From: Gammaproteobacteria bacterium
GTDB taxonomy: Bacteria > Pseudomonadota > Gammaproteobacteria > GCA-001735895
Assembly (NCBI GenBank): GCA_024225395.1
Contig: JAAEMR010000020.1
Span: 327-64,326, forward strand
Direction: 5' to 3'
Length of the DNA stretch: 64,000 nucleotides
The notes beneath the pieces were generated by a model, which ran no database searches, had not been told where the DNA came from, and saw only the letters and a list, made by a program, of their open reading frames with translations. Position 1 is the stretch's first letter, and each line of letters opens with the position of its first letter. Both the position numbers and the translations under genes were made by a program. Positions 709 to 46,423 of the stretch are shown here, piece by piece.

Positions 709-1170
709 TTAGCCTCCACACCCACCGATGGTCACCTTCACTTCTTTTTTATTCGCAAACAGCTTGCCGGCTGATTTCACCACCGCGACAACATTGCCTG
801 TTTTGCCCATTTTAATTCGGGTTGAAACATAAGCCTGGGAACCATCCAGTTTAAAAGAAGCCACCAGCGGGGAAGCATTTGATTCAGACAATAAGGTGAT
901 CGATTCAACATCCGCTAAAGCAGTTGAAATAGTGACAGGCACTACTGAACCATTTTCAGCAATATCAGGGGCTTTAATTTTGATACCATCCGAATGTTCA
1001 TAGCTACCTGAACCCAATGCTGACGATAAAGCAGTTGCGCTATCTTTAGCTTCAAATGCGGCTTTTGGGTAGGCAGCCAGTACCTGTACCGGGGTCATCA
1101 AACCTGCTGATACAGCAACGGCAACAGCAGAAGCCGCCAATGACGATTTTAATAGCGTTCTTCGATTCAC
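709..1170 (-). CDS. soxY: SoxY sulfur carrier protein
   Basis: Twin-arginine leader NRRTLLKSSLAASAVAVA and C-terminal carrier motif GGCGG. Start placed at GTG 1170, which is preceded by GGAGG at 1176-1180. The track start at 1203 is also possible. Confidence 0.9.
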   Translation of the reverse strand: MNRRTLLKSSLAASAVAVAVSAGLMTPVQVLAAYPKAAFEAKDSATALSSALGSGSYEHSDGIKIKAPDIAENGSVVPVTISTALADVESITLLSESNASPLVASFKLDGSQAYVSTRIKMGKTGNVVAVVKSAGKLFANKKEVKVTIGGCGG

Positions 1171-38791: not shown

Positions 38792-39031
38792 GTGATTAAA
38801 TCAGCCTGTTTTCTAATGAAGAAAGCCGCGGCTTCATCTGTATTCCTGATTGTTGCGGGAACCCTGTTGGTATTAATATCCCAGTTTATAAACCTGACTA
38901 CGGTTGTCCCTGCCATATTTTCATACGTTGGATTTATTTTAATTGTTGCCGGTTTACTGATTATGCTTATAACGACGGTGGCTATTTTACTGCCCAGGAT
39001 CAGCAGACAGCTGGAGCAGTGTCAGCACTAA
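38792..39031 (+). CDS. Small two-helix membrane protein ending RQLEQCQH
   Basis: 79 aa. GGAG lies 8 nt before the GTG start. Has a diverged inverted paralog 50 bp downstream. Confidence 0.5.
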   Translation: MIKSACFLMKKAAASSVFLIVAGTLLVLISQFINLTTVVPAIFSYVGFILIVAGLLIMLITTVAILLPRISRQLEQCQH

Positions 39032-39081: not shown

Positions 39082-39300
39082 CTAGTGCTCACATCGATCC
39101 ATTTTCTGTTTAGATTTTAGTAACACCGATATCAGGAATGTAGATAGCAGTATAGTGGGGGACGGCAATAACAAAATGAACCCGAAAAACATCACGATAT
39201 GCGGTAAATTTCATATTTGAGGCAATATATGCATAGCGACCATGATAAGCATAACGCCTGCGATAAAAAAGATTAGCGAGGCAACAACGCCTTCGCGCAT
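39082..39300 (-). pseudogene. Inverted paralog of the 38792-39031 small membrane protein, interrupted by an in-frame TGA (39211-39213)
   Basis: Manual translation MREGVVASLIFFIAGVMLIMVAMHILPQI*NLPHIVMFFGFILLLPSPTILLSTFLISVLLKSKQKMDRCEH. It aligns with the plus-strand copy (FIAG/IVAG, QI*NL/QFINL, GFIL, C-terminal RCEH/QCQH). Confidence 0.5.
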
Positions 39301-39342
39301 AGTTTGACAACCCAAAGTTAATAACATGTTGTTTTCATTATA

Positions 39343-39990
39343 TTAATCATTTTCAGCCATCATTTTTTTAGCAGTTCCCTTTTCCAGTCCAAACTCACTT
39401 TCAATCATTGCATTCCATGCCGCTCTTTTGAACGTTCGTTCATGAGGTACTCTCCGGTGAACCAGATTGTAATGACAATCAATACAACTTTTATGTTTCG
39501 CATCTTCCAGATGAATTTTATTAGTATCTGGCCGGGTACCATAAATGGCTTCTTTAACATGACATTTTTTACAGGTCGCCGAATCTCTCTTTTTAAACCA
39601 GCTTCTGGCAGCAAAGGCGGCTTCCGGTAAATGCAATGCACTCACAACTGGATCATCATAATCCGGGCCAATTAATGCGCCTTTCAGCTGATTGATAACA
39701 TCTTTACCCCCAATAAAATGATCCCAGGTCGCCGATAATACGCCTTCAGATACATGACAGTCTCCACAACTGGCTCGAACCCCGGAATCCGGCTTATAGT
39801 GTTTGGACTGCCGATAAGGGTCTGCCACAATTTCCATCGAATGACAGCTGGTACAAAAATCTTCACTGCTGGTGTAATGATCAAATTCTATCAAAAAAAG
39901 TATAAAACCCATGCCAGAAATTCCACCCACCAGTAAAGCAAATAAAACATGACGGGTTATGAAAGCTGGTAGCTGGAGCCTAATCTTCAT
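39343..39990 (-). CDS. NapC/NirT-family membrane-anchored tetraheme cytochrome c (quinol dehydrogenase)
   Basis: N-terminal transmembrane helix then 4 CxxCH motifs (CTSCH, CGDCH, CKKCH, CIDCH). ATG 39990 follows AAGGGA and overlaps the upstream stop. Confidence 0.85.
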   Translation of the reverse strand: MKIRLQLPAFITRHVLFALLVGGISGMGFILFLIEFDHYTSSEDFCTSCHSMEIVADPYRQSKHYKPDSGVRASCGDCHVSEGVLSATWDHFIGGKDVINQLKGALIGPDYDDPVVSALHLPEAAFAARSWFKKRDSATCKKCHVKEAIYGTRPDTNKIHLEDAKHKSCIDCHYNLVHRRVPHERTFKRAAWNAMIESEFGLEKGTAKKMMAEND

Positions 39991-41434
39991 GAGATATCCC
40001 TTGTCCAAAACCTGGAACAGGGTTCCCTTTTTCCGGATGGTTCAACCAGTCATGATGCTCAGAATCATTGATATACTTTTTTATCAGGGCATCACCTTTT
40101 TGCTTTCCGGCAACGCCCCTGATTTGCTTTAGAAATTTACCATAAAAATTGCTACCAACCTCACTCATGCCCTTCCAGGTCATACTGGGACTACCCATCG
40201 CGGCGCCATGCCTGGCCATTGTTCCACTGGTATGCCATAAATTCCAGTAAGTGACTTCAATCGGCTCATCGAAAGGTAAAGGCGTTAATAAGTCATCAGA
40301 GTAAAGCTGCTGCATAATGGCCTGAGCAGGTTTACCATATTTCTCATTAAACAGTTCAACCACGTTATCAAACTGTAACATCGCATTATTACTGAACCCT
40401 TTACTATGACATTCCAGACAAACTTTTGTCATGGCACCACGACGGCGTTTGGGCGATGCCACTGCTTTCACTTTACCCATGCTACCATCCATTTTAGAAA
40501 TACTTTCACCGCGCCGGGGTATAGGTTCAGAGGTTGAAAGTTCTCTCTTGCTTCCATCAGCAAAAATAACAAGATATTGCTGCTTTGAAACTGCCTCATT
40601 CAAATTCCATGAGTCACGCATACCCACATCATGCGTAGACTTCATTTTACCTGCTGCCCCCATGTGACAGGTGACACAGGTGGGAGCCGCCGAGTAATCC
40701 TTTCCAACGACCCACTGATCACTGTCCATATTCATATCTTTTTTATGCGCTTCATACATTATGCCGTGCCTGGAGCTTTCATATATTGATTTATCAGGAG
40801 AATCAGGTCCTGAGTGACAGTAGATGCATGCCTGTGGCTCACGTGCCTGAGCCTTGGAAAATTGATGCCTGCCGTGACAGGAGGAACAGGAACCAACTGA
40901 ACCATCCGGGTTAATACGTCCGATGCCGGAATTGGGCCAACTGGCTGGATCCAGTGTGCCATCACCACGTACCTTAACTTCCGAACCATGACATTTCGCA
41001 CAACCTGCATCATTAATGGATGGACTTCCAAAATGTTCGGAAAGAGCAGGCATCCGGTTCTTAATAATTGTAAGTGCCCTGGTATGAACCGAACCCTTTT
41101 GTTGCTTAAATTCTTGCGTATGGCAACGACCACAATCTTTCGGTGATACGATCGTCGCTATTATGCTACCTTCATGTTCGATTGCATCGACATCTTCTTC
41201 ATAAGCCTGATGACAATCCAGGCAGTTCACATTGGCCACAGCATGAGCACTGTTTTTCCACTGGTGAGTGAGCCCCGCCGAAGATTTACTATGACAGTCG
41301 ACACAGGCCTTACCTTCATCACTTCCCCAGCTACTGGAATCAACCGTGACTTTTGCAGCTAAGACAGAAGTAGATGACAACAATGTTATCAATAGAATCA
41401 GAACTGAAAATGAGGTCTGTAGGTAAGGCTTCAC
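39980..41434 (-). CDS. Octaheme cytochrome c of the hydroxylamine oxidoreductase (HAO) family
   Basis: Signal peptide and 8 CxxCH motifs (CVDCH, CLDCH, CGRCH, CAKCH, CSSCH, CIYCH, CVTCH, CLECH). HAO-family block WPNSGIGRINPDGSVGSCSSCHGRHQFS...AREPQACIYCHSGPDSP...YESSRHG. The start may be 41452. Confidence 0.8.
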   Translation of the reverse strand: MKPYLQTSFSVLILLITLLSSTSVLAAKVTVDSSSWGSDEGKACVDCHSKSSAGLTHQWKNSAHAVANVNCLDCHQAYEEDVDAIEHEGSIIATIVSPKDCGRCHTQEFKQQKGSVHTRALTIIKNRMPALSEHFGSPSINDAGCAKCHGSEVKVRGDGTLDPASWPNSGIGRINPDGSVGSCSSCHGRHQFSKAQAREPQACIYCHSGPDSPDKSIYESSRHGIMYEAHKKDMNMDSDQWVVGKDYSAAPTCVTCHMGAAGKMKSTHDVGMRDSWNLNEAVSKQQYLVIFADGSKRELSTSEPIPRRGESISKMDGSMGKVKAVASPKRRRGAMTKVCLECHSKGFSNNAMLQFDNVVELFNEKYGKPAQAIMQQLYSDDLLTPLPFDEPIEVTYWNLWHTSGTMARHGAAMGSPSMTWKGMSEVGSNFYGKFLKQIRGVAGKQKGDALIKKYINDSEHHDWLNHPEKGNPVPGFGQGISHED

Positions 41435-41509: not shown

Positions 41510-42092
41510 TTATTCTTTTTCGTAACCGACTATCATCGCCTTCAGGTAACCGATAAACACTTCACTGGTCGTTAAGCCATGTAGAGATGTACAATTAAAA
41601 ATGCGATTAACATGAAAGCCAGCACTGTATGCATTAACGCAACGAACATCAGACTTAGTCCTCCAGGCCCAACCATTGCCCAGTAAGGGTAAAAAAATAG
41701 AGCAAACCACTGAGTACCGCAAAAGGTAACATAAGGGTATGTAGCGACAGGTAAGCCATACGCTGTACAGGATTCAATTTTGACTGCCTGGTTTTATGAT
41801 GAGGGTATTCACTACCAGCGGTAAAAATATCCACGCCATAATATTTCATCATAGCCAGCAATTTATTCATATTTGCCGGTATATATTGTTTCCACTCACC
41901 CGTAACCATGTTGCAGAAAATACCCAGAAACCCGATAGCAATCAAACACCAGGAAGCGACTATATAAATATCCACTGCCTGCTCATACCCGAACAAACTA
42001 TAAGTCCCATGAATCTCAAATCCCGTTATCAACATGGCAATAACCAGAAAGCCCTGAGACCAGTGCCAGTTCCGATATGACAACGGGTACAA
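41510..42092 (-). pseudogene. Cytochrome b (Ni/Fe-hydrogenase / formate dehydrogenase gamma-type b subunit family) broken by two frameshifts in its 3' part
   Basis: Frame 1: YRNWHWSQGFLVIAMLITG...LTGQWLGLED*. Frame 2: GLSLMFVALMHTVLAFMLIAFLIVHLYMA*. Frame 3: TTSEVFIGYLKAMIVGYEKE*. Joined together they reconstruct a typical family member. Confidence 0.65.
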
Positions 42093-42357
42093 CGTGATAA
42101 GTTACCAGTGATACTCAGGCAAAAATTGTTCACAACAGTTTTCTTACCTACCAGTTCACCATTGTCGGGATTAGTAAATTGCCGGTTCCGGTGTTTTTTT
42201 AAGCTCATCAAACTTACTGTGATCAGCCGTTGAGGTAGAATTTTTTAACCGGTGTGTTTTTCTGAGAAGCCAAACTACTACTGGAAAAACCAACCAGACA
42301 GCTACCCAGCAATAAAAACAAAGCGGGGCGAACTAAACTTCCATAGCGGGAAAACAT
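42029..42357 (-). pseudogene. Remnant of a multiheme cytochrome c gene (resembles the N-terminus of tetrathionate-reductase-family octahemes), frameshifted and truncated
   Basis: A strong RBS GGGAGGG precedes ATG 42357, giving signal peptide MFSRYGSLVRPALFLLLGSCLVGFSSSSLA and a stop after 44 codons. The next frame reads ADHSKFDELKK. A third frame reads FTNPDNGELVGKKTVVNNFCLSITGNLSRCTRCH. Frame changes coincide with A6/A7 runs. The ORF then runs into the cytochrome b start. Confidence 0.5.
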
Positions 42358-42441: not shown

Positions 42442-43722
42442 TTACAACGAGTTTTCAGCCGATGCAATCATCTTTGGAGCAGTTACATCTTTAGGGATTT
42501 TAGTGAACTTTTTAACCAGTCCAGGCCATAAAAGGTTGTAGTAAAGTTCGGCACGAACCAGTACAACGTCTTTGGCTGGGATAGAGTATTCAAAGTTACG
42601 TGTCTCAAAAGCTTTCAGTCGAGTATCAGAACCCTGACCTTTAGCCGTTGGAGGACCCGTTGGCTTTCCATCTGCATCAACCAGTGTTAAGAACATAAAT
42701 GCTTTTTTGTCTTGCTTGGCAGGGTGTCCTTTTGCATTTTCCCAAACCATCTTGCCGTCCTTGTCATAAGCCGTAATTTTTATATATAGATTTCTGAACG
42801 GTGCACCAGTAGGCATGGTGTGCGGTTGTTTATTTCTGAGAGTAATAGTCGAGTTAATATTATCCCCATTCTTTTTACTATCCATATAAAAAACTACTGC
42901 ACGTTGCAACATACCCATATCATGTCCACCACCCATACTGTGGTCGGCAAAACCTTTACCCATAGGCATGTGGCATGACAGACAGTCTACTTGCGCATTA
43001 CTCGCTATGTATTCGTCACCCGTTGCACATAAAGGCACTCCATGAGCATTGTTACGCTTATCATGGCAACCCATGCAGGCATCGGATGTTCTTAAGTGAG
43101 AAGGATTACTTTCCATTGGTAGAGACTGAATTGTCTTGCCATCAACCTCAACCGCTTCACCCATATGAGGGTTCGGTTTCTTGTCTTCTTCACCACCAAA
43201 ACCAAAATCATCACCACTAGCAGCCAGTGATGCCAGTTTATTGTTAGAGTGACGACCAGAGCCCTGTAATTTAGTAGATGTTTCATAGGCCTTCAGCCCT
43301 AATTTACCTTTGGTTGCATCAACACCTACAAGTTTTTTCATAGTATGACAGGCAACACAGTTAACACCTTCAGAGTAGGCAGGGGCAGAATCCAGTTTAG
43401 TCTTTTTATCTCTCGCTGCATTAGGTGCATGACACTGCAAACAAACAGGGTATTTACCTGATTTTGTTTTTACGCCTTCCTTTCCTGGATCACCGACAAC
43501 TTTTCTATAGAAAGTACCGTGAATGGGATCTTTGAATGCCGTACTGTTTGCATGCATTGAACCTTTCCATTGTTTATAAATATCTTTATGGCAAGTTTTA
43601 CAGGTTTCGGACGAAACCTGGTGAATCGGTTTATCAGCTGAAACATTTGTAGCTGAAAGCAAACTTAAACCACAAAATACCATTCCTGAAAATAGCAAAG
43701 AAATTTTTACCCTGGTGCGCAT
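42442..43722 (-). CDS. Periplasmic pentaheme cytochrome c with a heme-free C-terminal domain
   Basis: 426 aa with a signal peptide and 5 CxxCH motifs (CKTCH, CLQCH, CVACH, CMGCH, CLSCH). The last 150 aa or so lack heme motifs. GAGGAAGGG Shine-Dalgarno. Confidence 0.8.
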   Translation of the reverse strand: MRTRVKISLLFSGMVFCGLSLLSATNVSADKPIHQVSSETCKTCHKDIYKQWKGSMHANSTAFKDPIHGTFYRKVVGDPGKEGVKTKSGKYPVCLQCHAPNAARDKKTKLDSAPAYSEGVNCVACHTMKKLVGVDATKGKLGLKAYETSTKLQGSGRHSNNKLASLAASGDDFGFGGEEDKKPNPHMGEAVEVDGKTIQSLPMESNPSHLRTSDACMGCHDKRNNAHGVPLCATGDEYIASNAQVDCLSCHMPMGKGFADHSMGGGHDMGMLQRAVVFYMDSKKNGDNINSTITLRNKQPHTMPTGAPFRNLYIKITAYDKDGKMVWENAKGHPAKQDKKAFMFLTLVDADGKPTGPPTAKGQGSDTRLKAFETRNFEYSIPAKDVVLVRAELYYNLLWPGLVKKFTKIPKDVTAPKMIASAENSL

Positions 43723-46380: not shown

Positions 46381-46423
46381 TTGACATGAATCAAGAGTCA
46401 ACATTAGAACTAAAAGCTATAAT
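46381..46423 (+). promoter_or_regulatory. Class II FNR/DNR-type promoter: TTGACatgaATCAA box plus TATAAT -10
   Basis: Box at 46381-46394, then 23 nt, then TATAAT at 46418-46423. AGGTAAG Shine-Dalgarno and ATG at 46453. Confidence 0.6.

What the first reader, a model, noticed from the sequence alone, without database searches (positions are those of the whole stretch)
39343..41434. HAO-family octaheme cytochrome paired with a NapC/NirT tetraheme in a Sox-encoding gammaproteobacterium
Seen in sequence: a secreted protein with exactly eight CxxCH motifs and the HAO-family block GRINPDGSVGSCSSCHGRHQFS...CIYCHSGPDSP...SRHG. Its stop overlaps the start of a membrane-anchored four-heme NapC/NirT-type gene. 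Established: HAO homologues lacking the cross-linking tyrosine, paired with NapC/NrfH-type quinol dehydrogenases, act reductively (nitrite or hydroxylamine to ammonium) in Campylobacterota. Abundant octahemes with nitrite reductase activity are also known from large sulfur bacteria. Inference: this pair is a quinol-dependent nitrite/hydroxylamine reductase or detoxifier working alongside NosZ. No nirS, nirK, nor or nrfA is present in the window.
Basis: partly seen in the sequence, partly recalled or inferred. Interest (0 to 1): 0.6.

Follow-up and report, generated by a model that had tools for sequence, protein, structure and literature searches.

The report
Cross-link-free HAO-like octaheme with NapC partner
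A marine sulfur-oxidising bacterium carries an intact eight-heme enzyme of the hydroxylamine-oxidoreductase family wired to the membrane quinone pool and built to run as a reductase, but two residues of its catalytic pocket differ from all sampled relatives, so its real substrate (nitrite or hydroxylamine is the best guess) is still open.

Summary
Window 39980-41434(-) encodes a secreted 484-aa protein with exactly eight CxxCH motifs. Its stop overlaps by 11 nt the start of a membrane-anchored four-heme NapC/NirT-family gene (39343-39990). The octaheme belongs to the HAO family by Pfam, by PDB sequence search and by predicted fold; IhOCC (4QO5) is the nearest solved structure. A quinol-driven reductase is therefore supported. 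The substrate is inferred only.

New here:
- The clade uniquely replaces the family's distal Asp-His with Asp/Glu-Ser, and an Arg with Asn.
- It carries a beta insertion.
- The pair belongs to a conserved island: penta-heme c552, OTR, cytochrome b, HAO, NapC, small membrane protein.
- In this genome OTR is deleted, and cytochrome b and the small gene are broken, while HAO and NapC stay under strong purifying selection.

The genome has Nap, cd1 NirS, Nor and NosZ; NrfA, NirB and Hcp were not found. A second HAO paralog lies beside norCBQD. The scan noted the same kind of pair earlier in another genome (e1-957849), with the same reading. No experimental work on this clade was found in the paper library searched. 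Verdict: a new variant of a known kind, of moderate interest.

The parts
39980..41434 (-). HAO-family octaheme cytochrome c. 484 aa, Sec leader, no cross-link Tyr, distal pocket Asp211-Ser212 / Asn279, clade-specific beta insertion at about residues 284-326.
39343..39990 (-). NapC/NirT-family membrane-anchored tetraheme cytochrome, the presumed quinol dehydrogenase. 215 aa; heme 1 motif is CTSCHSM; its start overlaps the octaheme stop by 11 nt.
   Evidence: It sits directly after the octaheme gene in 17 of 17 related loci that have downstream sequence.
39082..39327 (-). Small 81-codon two-helix membrane protein gene, 15 nt downstream of NapC. It is broken here by TGG>TGA at 39211-39213, where two congeners have Trp.
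   Evidence: A co-oriented homologue lies downstream of NapC in 17 of 17 related loci, 61-100% identical to the congener G002's copy.
41510..42092 (-). Cytochrome b (PhsC-like) gene with two 1-nt frameshifts. In relatives it is the membrane partner of the neighbouring OTR.
   Evidence: An independent metagenome contig (run X3) carries an extra A at 41573 and at 41690, and these restore a 198-aa frame.
42171..42357 (-). N-terminal remnant of an octaheme tetrathionate-reductase-family (OTR) gene: signal peptide plus ADHSKF. About 1.3 kb of the gene is deleted.
   Evidence: The same deletion is seen in the independent contig of run X3.
42442..43722 (-). Penta-heme cytochrome, 426 aa with a heme-free C-terminal beta domain. 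It is a close homologue of the low-potential cytochrome c552 of Thermochromatium tepidum and lies upstream of the pair in nearly all related loci.
   Evidence: PDB 5ZE8, E 4.5e-161.

Best explanation
The two genes encode a quinol-dependent periplasmic reductase.

The membrane-anchored NapC/NirT-type tetraheme oxidises quinol. It hands electrons to a secreted HAO-family octaheme, probably a trimer, whose five-coordinate heme 4 is not cross-linked to tyrosine and therefore works reductively. The most likely substrates are small nitrogen oxides: nitrite, hydroxylamine or NO, reduced to ammonium either for detoxification or as a branch beside NirS/Nor/NosZ denitrification.

Shown: family, fold, absence of the tyrosine, obligatory pairing with the NapC-type gene, purifying selection.

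Inferred: direction of electron flow, oligomeric state, substrate and product.
For: Family and fold:
- PF13447 scores 89 bits.
- Best PDB sequence hit is IhOCC 4QO5 at 5.7e-41, against about 1e-20 for oxidative HAOs. With a family profile the IhOCC hit is 6.9e-60.
- The AlphaFold model has pLDDT 87.5 and pTM 0.84. Foldseek ranks 4QO5 first (E 1e-20, TM 0.68), then the reducing HAO Kustc0458, then NeHAO, KsHAO and HDH. ONR, NrfA and MccA are not significant.

Cross-link tyrosine:
- Tyr467 sits in the motif NPGGWTYTEGW of NeHAO.
- In a 40-sequence L-INS-i alignment the window protein has SPSM--TWKGM at that place. The 104-sequence alignment gives the same result.
- The protein has no Tyr anywhere between residues 396 and 431.

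Phylogeny: oxidative HAOs form a separate, supported side of the tree (99). The window clade has 12 rows and support 100, and lies inside the cross-link-free radiation.

Partner: the NapC-type gene follows the octaheme in 17 of 17 loci.

Selection: dN/dS is about 0.04 for both genes against two congeners. Between near-identical strains the octaheme shows only synonymous changes.

Genome context:
- NapA is present; cd1 NirS hits are present.
- NrfA, Hcp and NirB were not found.
- Within the genus the pair was found in G000, G002, G006, G008 and G013. cd1 NirS was found only in G000, G002, G006 and G013.

Literature:
- Cross-link-free HAOs reduce nitrite and hydroxylamine and do not oxidise hydroxylamine (PMC8042395, which also cites Haase 2017).
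- HaoA plus a NapC/cM552-type cytochrome is proposed as a quinol:nitrite reductase (PMC3701875).
Against: - The distal pocket is rebuilt. NeHAO Asp267-His268 aligns with Asp211-Ser212, and the position of NeHAO Tyr334 (Arg in most cross-link-free clades) is Asn279. Losing both His and Arg is not what one expects for a nitrite-anion pocket.
- The neighbours relate to sulfur chemistry: OTR, and a c552 related to the polysulfide reductase MccSep.
- The clade is seen in sulfur oxidisers.
- The genome already has NirS.
- Three accessory genes of the island are broken here, so the module may be on its way out.
- There are no expression data.
- Genus-level co-occurrence with NirS involves close kin and is not independent evidence.
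Confidence: 0.5

Rival explanations
1. The octaheme acts on a sulfur or selenium species, such as sulfite, polysulfide, tetrathionate/thiosulfate or selenite. Together with c552 and OTR-cytochrome b it forms a periplasmic sulfur-compound redox island of sulfur-oxidising Gammaproteobacteria.
For: - The island is conserved as c552-OTR-cytb-HAO-NapC in about ten loci from lucinid symbionts, Sedimenticola and sediment or water-column MAGs.
- OTR matches TIGR04315 at 630 bits.
- The penta-heme is a close homologue of T. tepidum c552. That protein is suggested to act in sulfur metabolism (PMC11976967, citing Chen 2019) and is structurally related to the polysulfide/selenite reductase MccSep (bioRxiv 10.1101/2025.11.18.688581).
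- The clade-specific pocket lacks the His and Arg kept by the other cross-link-free clades sampled.
Against: - Every characterised HAO-family enzyme acts on nitrogen compounds (PMC8042395, PMC9250108).
- OTR itself reduces nitrite and hydroxylamine (PMC6449678, PMC11237559).
- HAO-NapC persists where OTR and cytb are absent or broken (L063, L068 and the window) and can be its own transcription unit (L023; L063). The link to the neighbours is therefore loose.
Confidence: 0.2
2. The module runs oxidatively, like the forward hydroxylamine:quinone redox module of ammonia oxidisers. The octaheme oxidises a periplasmic substrate, and the NapC-type cytochrome acts like cM552 and reduces quinone.
For: - NapC/NrfH/cM552 relatives work in either direction (PMC3701875).
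- The host is a lithotroph that feeds periplasmic electrons into its respiratory chain.
- The partner is not an equivalog of NapC, NirT, TorC or NrfH: all scores are far below the curated cut-offs.
Against: - There is no cross-link tyrosine. Cross-link-free HAOs tested so far do not oxidise hydroxylamine or hydrazine (PMC8042395).
- There is no haoB gene and no c554-type partner of the kind found beside canonical HAOs.
- The protein lies far from the oxidative clade in the tree.
Confidence: 0.1
3. It is an NO-forming nitrite reductase like anammox HAOr (Kustc0458), acting as a second nitrite reductase beside NirS.
For: HAOr lacks the cross-link and makes NO from nitrite (PMC8042395). Kustc0458 is the second-best structural match.
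Against: - By sequence, Kustc0458 belongs with the canonical HAO side. Canonical HAOs hit it at about 1e-57 to 1e-61, while the window protein hits it at 5.8e-18.
- The genome already has cd1 NirS.
- HAOr uses a diheme partner, not a NapC-type one.
Confidence: 0.07
4. In this particular genome the pair is a decaying remnant that no longer functions.
For: Within 3 kb, OTR is deleted, cytochrome b has two frameshifts, and the conserved small downstream gene has a nonsense codon. The re-assembled source run reproduces the frameshifts.
Against: - Both reading frames are intact with all 12 heme motifs.
- Strain-level differences in the octaheme are synonymous.
- dN/dS is about 0.04.
- Two other genomes keep c552-HAO-NapC cleanly without OTR or cytb, so these two neighbours are dispensable.
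Confidence: 0.1

Closest known systems
IhOCC, octaheme cytochrome c of Ignicoccus hospitalis (PDB 4QO5)
   Same: - Best sequence match (5.7e-41; 6.9e-60 with a profile) and best fold match (Foldseek E 1e-20, TM 0.68).
- Eight hemes in HAO order.
- Reported to lack the P460 cross-link (PMC9250108).
- Grouped with HAO/HDH as clade 1 of the multiheme family and listed as a nitrite reductase (PMC9250108).
   Different: - Only 24% identical over the structural alignment.
- IhOCC-like sequences form a separate clade in the tree (P0213, P0238, P0246, P0267).
- IhOCC's pocket reads DPDVP, the window's GPDSP.
- The window clade has a beta insertion and a co-translated NapC partner.
- IhOCC is archaeal.
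Epsilonproteobacterial Hao (εHao) with CycB/NapC: the 'reverse-HURM' of Nautilia and Campylobacter
   Same: A cross-link-free HAO homologue paired with a NapC/NrfH/cM552-family tetraheme, proposed to act as a quinol:nitrite or hydroxylamine reductase (PMC3701875). Recombinant εHaos reduce nitrite and hydroxylamine (PMC8042395, citing Haase 2017).
   Different: - In N. profundicola the two genes are far apart (NAMH_1280 and NAMH_0559). Here they overlap.
- No εHao sequence could be fetched with the tools, so neither clade membership nor pocket identity was tested.
- Those hosts lack NirS and NirK; this genome has NirS.
Oxidative HAO/HDH (Nitrosomonas europaea HAO, Kuenenia HOX and HDH)
   Same: Same superfamily, heme order and overall fold. 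The distal Asp is kept.
   Different: - No Tyr467 equivalent.
- His268 becomes Ser and Tyr334 becomes Asn.
- No haoB gene.
- Opposite side of the tree.
NrfHA (NrfH quinol dehydrogenase plus penta-heme nitrite reductase NrfA)
   Same: The same logic: a NapC/NirT-type membrane tetraheme feeds a periplasmic multiheme reductase. The partner matches NrfH weakly (PDB 2J7A, 1.5e-6) and has the CxxCHxM heme 1 motif.
   Different: The catalytic subunit is not NrfA. PF02335 scores 17.8 bits, below its cut-off of 24.1. There is no CxxCK motif, and the fold match to NrfA is not significant.
Orange octaheme of Guaymas Beggiatoaceae and relatives in large sulfur bacteria
   Same: An octaheme from sulfur-oxidising Gammaproteobacteria with reported nitrite reductase activity (PMC6449678). 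A Candidatus Marithrix protein (cluster of P0124, 40% identical) belongs to the sister clade of the window clade.
   Different: - The sister clade keeps GPDH and Arg in the pocket.
- The sister-clade loci read (L049-L052) have no adjacent NapC gene.
- Whether BOGUAY_0691 itself belongs to that clade was not tested.

Membership tests
HAO-family octaheme cytochromes c (Pfam PF13447; clade 1 of Soares et al. 2022) | Eight CxxCH motifs and a significant match to the family model | tested here: met
   Eight CxxCH motifs. PF13447 scores 89.2 bits against a cut-off of 21.9.
HAO-family octaheme cytochromes c (Pfam PF13447; clade 1 of Soares et al. 2022) | Fold like the solved HAO, HDH and IhOCC structures, and not like NrfA, ONR, OTR or MccA | tested here: met
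   The ten best Foldseek hits are all HAO-family chains (E 1e-20 to 7e-10). ONR, NrfA and MccA have E above 0.1. The model has pLDDT 87.5.
HAO-family octaheme cytochromes c (Pfam PF13447; clade 1 of Soares et al. 2022) | Seven bis-His hemes plus one five-coordinate catalytic heme 4 | tested here: inconclusive
   Besides the eight CxxCH histidines, His87, His117, His190, His223 and His268 are invariant and His64 nearly so in 48 sequences. His401 is invariant and His409 nearly so within the clade. The count fits the rule, but heme ligation cannot be read from sequence.
Oxidative HAO/HDH (P460 enzymes) | Tyrosine that cross-links to the catalytic heme of the neighbouring subunit (NeHAO Tyr467) | tested here: not met
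   Tyr467 was located in the 4FAS chain through a canonical HAO. The aligned column is Thr or Trp in the window clade, and the protein has no Tyr between residues 396 and 431.
Oxidative HAO/HDH (P460 enzymes) | Distal Asp267-His268 pair (PMC3814345) and Tyr334 (own knowledge) | tested here: not met
   Asp is kept (Asp211, or Glu in some clade members). His becomes Ser212 in 12 of 12 clade members. The Tyr334 position is Asn279.
Oxidative HAO/HDH (P460 enzymes) | haoB gene directly downstream | tested here: not met
   The five canonical HAO loci L024-L028 have a heme-free gene of about 330 aa downstream. The window has a NapC-type gene instead.
Cross-link-free reductive HAO homologues (εHao, IhOCC, HAOr) | HAO fold without the tyrosine cross-link | tested here: met
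Cross-link-free reductive HAO homologues (εHao, IhOCC, HAOr) | Partner of the NapC/NrfH/cM552 family linking to the quinone pool (reverse-HURM layout) | tested here: met
   A PF03264 gene overlaps the octaheme stop. The two genes are adjacent in 17 of 17 loci.
Cross-link-free reductive HAO homologues (εHao, IhOCC, HAOr) | Measured nitrite or hydroxylamine reductase activity with negligible hydroxylamine oxidation | not testable with these tools
   This needs purified protein.
Cross-link-free reductive HAO homologues (εHao, IhOCC, HAOr) | Sequence clustering with εHao of Campylobacterota | not tested
   No εHao sequence was obtainable. Named cluster members were Marithrix, Planctomycetota/Brocadiaceae, Latescibacterota, Anaerolineae and unclassified Gammaproteobacteria MAGs.
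NapC/NirT family tetraheme quinol dehydrogenases (PF03264) | N-terminal membrane helix, four CxxCH motifs, near full-length match to the family model, CxxCHxM at heme 1 | tested here: met
   One search gives the sequence, with CTSCHSM at heme 1. PF03264 scores 116 bits over positions 7-171 of 174. That the motif is typical of the family is my own knowledge.
NapC, NirT, TorC or NrfH proper (NCBIfam equivalogs) | Score above the curated cut-off of the equivalog model | tested here: not met
   TorC 90.7 against 478; napC_nirT 76.6 against 311; NapC 64.6 against 349; NrfH 47.3 against 134. It is a separate subfamily.
NrfA / ONR / OTR nitrite- or tetrathionate-reducing multihemes | Match to the family model and its special heme ligation (CxxCK in NrfA and ONR) | tested here: not met
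   PF02335 scores 17.8 bits, below its cut-off. There is no CxxCK. The fold matches are not significant.

The most novel reading that the evidence does not exclude
The Ser/Asn-pocket clade may be a new catalytic type within the HAO superfamily. On this reading it does not act on nitrite or hydroxylamine at all. It acts on a different small molecule, such as a sulfur or selenium species or NO, and works with the conserved c552, OTR and small-membrane-protein partners as a previously undescribed quinone-linked periplasmic module of sulfur-oxidising bacteria and chemosynthetic symbionts.
Probability: 0.2. Interest if true: 0.75.

Novelty: new variant of a known kind. Interest (0 to 1): 0.5.

Why it matters
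Cross-link-free HAO homologues are candidate missing enzymes in nitrogen cycling: ammonium or NO formation in organisms without NrfA, NirS or NirK. This clade is common in lucinid and tubeworm symbionts, Sedimenticola and marine sediment or water-column sulfur oxidisers. At least 120 distinct 90%-identity clusters are 60% or more identical to the window protein.

If it reduces nitrite or hydroxylamine to ammonium, these denitrifiers would also retain nitrogen. That would change nitrogen budgets for symbioses and oxygen-deficient waters.

If the rebuilt pocket means another substrate, it would extend the chemistry of the HAO fold. The natural His-to-Ser and Arg-to-Asn swap is also a ready-made test of what tunes reactivity in this family beyond the tyrosine cross-link.

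Tried and rejected
Synteny was obtained with the genome search, the fetch from genomes and the search for related loci instead.
- No RNA holder was listed for the stretch. The one guessed RNA run laid nothing. There is therefore no expression evidence either way.
- Direct comparison with εHao of Campylobacterota was not possible. Two cluster look-ups of 20 representatives returned no Campylobacterota names.
- FNR/DNR boxes: the four perfect boxes in the window all lie in the nos region, at 46381 or beyond. There is only a one-mismatch site 370 nt upstream of the penta-heme gene, and no conserved box upstream of the island in five relatives. I rejected this as evidence of regulation.
- A terminator-like hairpin just downstream of NapC turned out to lie inside the coding sequence of the small 81-codon gene. 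I dropped it.
- The promoter scan found fewer sites than the shuffled sequences did and is uninformative.
- A possible assimilatory nitrate reductase hit on C19 is a Tat-exported molybdoenzyme with a three-heme partner, not NasA.
- Flanking genes beyond the island vary between genomes. The nos and quinone-module neighbourhood is shared with congener G002 but not with the other loci read.
Full report
**Observation**

The minus strand of 39343-41434 holds two overlapping genes.

- Its start is best placed at GTG 41434. A GGAG lies 9 nt upstream, and the N-terminus VKP is conserved in two congeners.
- The second (39343-39990) encodes 215 residues with one N-terminal membrane helix and four CxxCH motifs. 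The first of these reads CTSCHSM.
- The octaheme's TAG (39980-39982) lies inside the first codons of the second gene, an 11-nt overlap.
- Pfam assigns the first protein to PF13447 (89 bits) and the second to PF03264 NapC/NirT (116 bits, nearly the whole profile).
- NCBIfam places the second protein far below the cut-offs of NapC, NirT, TorC and NrfH. It is a separate branch of that family.

**Family and fold of the octaheme**

- Against PDB sequences the best match is IhOCC of Ignicoccus hospitalis (4QO5, 5.7e-41). The oxidative HAOs, HDH and the reducing Kustc0458 follow at 1e-14 to 1e-22.
- A profile of 14 relatives raises the IhOCC match to 6.9e-60.
- An AlphaFold model built on 48 sequences is confident (pLDDT 87.5, pTM 0.84) and ends in three long C-terminal helices.
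- Foldseek ranks 4QO5 first (E 1e-20, TM 0.68), then only HAO-family chains. ONR, NrfA, MccA and OcwA are not significant.

**The cross-link tyrosine**

- I fetched canonical HAOs from a sample of 400 genomes of the same class.
- One of them aligns over its whole length to the N. europaea chain 4FAS. Counting along that alignment puts Tyr467 in NPGGWTYTEGW, Asp267-His268 in GVDH and Tyr334 in RWANY.
- PMC3814345 names Asp267, His268 and Tyr467 as the functional residues. Tyr334 rests on my own knowledge.
- In a 40-sequence L-INS-i alignment, and again in a 104-sequence one, the window protein reads SPSM--TWKGM where canonical HAOs have the tyrosine. It has no tyrosine between residues 396 and 431.
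- The cross-link tyrosine is absent.

**Phylogeny**

The tree has 104 rows: loci from the class sample, congeners, named clade members and 57 full-length representatives of the 1.84-billion-protein library.

- Canonical HAOs, a clade of HAO-like proteins paired with five-heme partners, and one further sequence form one supported side (99).
- All other sequences form the cross-link-free radiation.
- The window protein lies in a 12-row clade with support 100 and a long stem.
- Its sister (99) is a group that contains a Candidatus Marithrix protein.
- Sequences carrying IhOCC's DPDVPAF signature form another clade.

**A rebuilt pocket**

- Nearly all cross-link-free clades sampled keep GPDHPQ, which is the HAO Asp-His pair. 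They also keep an Arg at the position of NeHAO Tyr334.
- The window clade alone has GP(D/E)SPD and W-x-L-N. His becomes Ser and Arg becomes Asn in 12 of 12 members.
- Both alignments are gap-free and anchored on an invariant CxxCH, or on an invariant His and Trp.
- The clade also has an insertion of about 40 residues that the model folds as beta strands (residues 284-326). The genome's second paralog lacks it.
- An earlier agent of this scan reached the same conclusion on another genome (e1-957849). I obtained it independently before reading that note.

**Gene neighbourhood**

- In two congeners the order is: penta-heme (about 430 aa), octaheme OTR (543 aa; TIGR04315, 630 bits), cytochrome b (199 aa, PhsC-like), HAO-like, NapC-like.
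- A scan of species genomes gave 18 named loci. They come from marine Gammaproteobacteria MAGs, symbionts of the lucinids Taylorina, Bathyaustriella and Lucinoma, and a Sedimenticola MAG.
- The NapC-type gene follows the HAO-like gene in all 17 loci that have downstream sequence.
- The five-gene order holds in about ten loci.
- Two loci (L063, L068) have penta-heme, HAO and NapC with no OTR or cytochrome b.
- In one congener the pair is transcribed divergently from the other three genes (L023).
- In L063 a strong terminator and 355 nt separate the penta-heme gene from the pair.
- An 81-codon two-helix membrane protein gene lies downstream of NapC, co-oriented, in 17 of 17 loci. The gap is 17-30 nt in the two congeners measured.
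- The penta-heme protein is a close homologue of the low-potential cytochrome c552 of Thermochromatium tepidum (5ZE8, E 4.5e-161) and a distant relative of the polysulfide reductase MccSep (bioRxiv 10.1101/2025.11.18.688581; PMC11976967).
- Genes beyond the island differ from genome to genome.
- Among the HAO-like clades of the class sample, only the window clade has a NapC-type gene overlapping or abutting the octaheme gene. One divergent sequence on the HAO side of the tree (L041) is followed by two four-heme genes of unchecked family.

**State of the island in this genome**

- Only a 62-codon N-terminal remnant of OTR is left.
- Cytochrome b carries two 1-nt frameshifts.
- The small downstream gene has TGA where two congeners have TGG.
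- Logan's re-assembly of the probable source run reproduces the window without indels.
- A contig from an independent study (run X3) shares the OTR deletion. It has one extra A at 41573 and one at 41690, which restore a complete 198-aa cytochrome b.
- The deletion is therefore real and older. The frameshifts are strain-specific and younger.
- Across the same contigs the HAO-like gene differs only by two synonymous changes. NapC differs by one synonymous and two conservative changes.
- Against two congeners dN/dS is about 0.04 for both genes, although synonymous sites are saturated.
- The pair is thus maintained while its neighbours decay.

**Genome inventory**

The genome is 98.9% complete.

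- Present: NapA; five cd1 NirS-family hits; nor-like genes, named from size, order and heme count only; clade II NosZ and NosD in the window.
- Not found: NarG, NrfA, Hcp, NirB.
- NrfA was found in none of 41 relatives.
- Within the genus the window-type gene was found in G000, G002, G006, G008 and G013. cd1 NirS was found in G000, G002, G006 and G013 only. G008 is 79% complete.
- These genomes are close kin, so this is a hint and not a test.
- A second HAO paralog (39% identical, Asp-His kept, motif PDY-THW near the cross-link column) lies on C149 beside the nor-like genes.

**Mechanism**

- Shown: family, fold, no cross-link tyrosine, obligatory NapC-type partner, selection.
- From the literature: cross-link-free HAOs reduce nitrite, hydroxylamine and NO, and do not oxidise hydroxylamine (PMC8042395). 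HaoA with a NapC/cM552-type cytochrome is the proposed quinol:nitrite reductase of Nautilia (PMC3701875).
- Inferred: quinol is oxidised by the membrane tetraheme, electrons run through the octaheme to heme 4, and a small nitrogen oxide is reduced, most simply to ammonium.
- The rebuilt pocket and the sulfur-related neighbours keep a different substrate a live option.

**Verdict**

The finding is a new variant of a known kind and was already met once in this scan.

Noticed in passing
window 41510-42357: The OTR gene is reduced to a 62-codon remnant and cytochrome b has two 1-nt frameshifts. An independent metagenome contig (run X3) shares the OTR deletion but has an intact 198-aa cytochrome b. 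The decay is therefore stepwise and differs between strains.
   Followed up: yes
window 39082-39327 (-): The 81-codon two-helix membrane protein gene after NapC has TGA (39211-39213) where two congeners have Trp. Homologues lie downstream of NapC in 17 of 17 related loci, often with a second co-oriented paralog. The congeners end in the motif C-D-H, and the convergent paralog at 38792-39031 ends C-Q-H.
   Followed up: partly
window 42442-43722 (-): The penta-heme cytochrome is a close homologue of Thermochromatium tepidum low-potential cytochrome c552 (PDB 5ZE8, E 4.5e-161). It is distantly related to the selenoprotein polysulfide reductase MccSep. It lies upstream of the HAO-NapC pair in nearly all related loci.
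   Followed up: partly
G000 contig C149:33414-34799 (L001:934-2319): A second HAO-family octaheme (461 aa, 39% identical) keeps the Asp-His pair and has a Tyr three residues before the cross-link column (PDY-THW). A TPR protein follows it, and it lies about 700 bp from a nor-like cluster (norD/Q/E/B/C by size, order and heme count) and on the same contig as nirS-family genes. Congeners carry both paralogs together.
   Followed up: partly
loci L029-L040 (class sample): A well-supported clade of HAO-like octahemes (445-612 aa; pocket GPPHPDD, no cross-link Tyr) is followed by a five-heme gene of about 270 aa in 11 of its 12 loci (the twelfth is cut by the contig end). It appears in 12 of the 400 gammaproteobacterial genomes sampled and groups with the canonical HAO side of the tree.
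   Followed up: no
L060:2350-3042: In the Taylorina symbiont a Crp/FNR-family regulator gene lies next to the penta-heme gene and is divergent from it. No conserved FNR box was found upstream of the island across genomes.
   Followed up: partly
whole genome G000: Three SoxY genes were found (one at window 712-1167), but there was no match to the SoxB model TIGR04486 in a 98.9% complete genome.
   Followed up: no
L043:2444-3538 and L044:2383-3447: In two other gammaproteobacterial genomes an HAO-like octaheme of the paralog-B type is followed by a nine-heme cytochrome of about 360 aa. This is a third kind of partner in this family.
   Followed up: no
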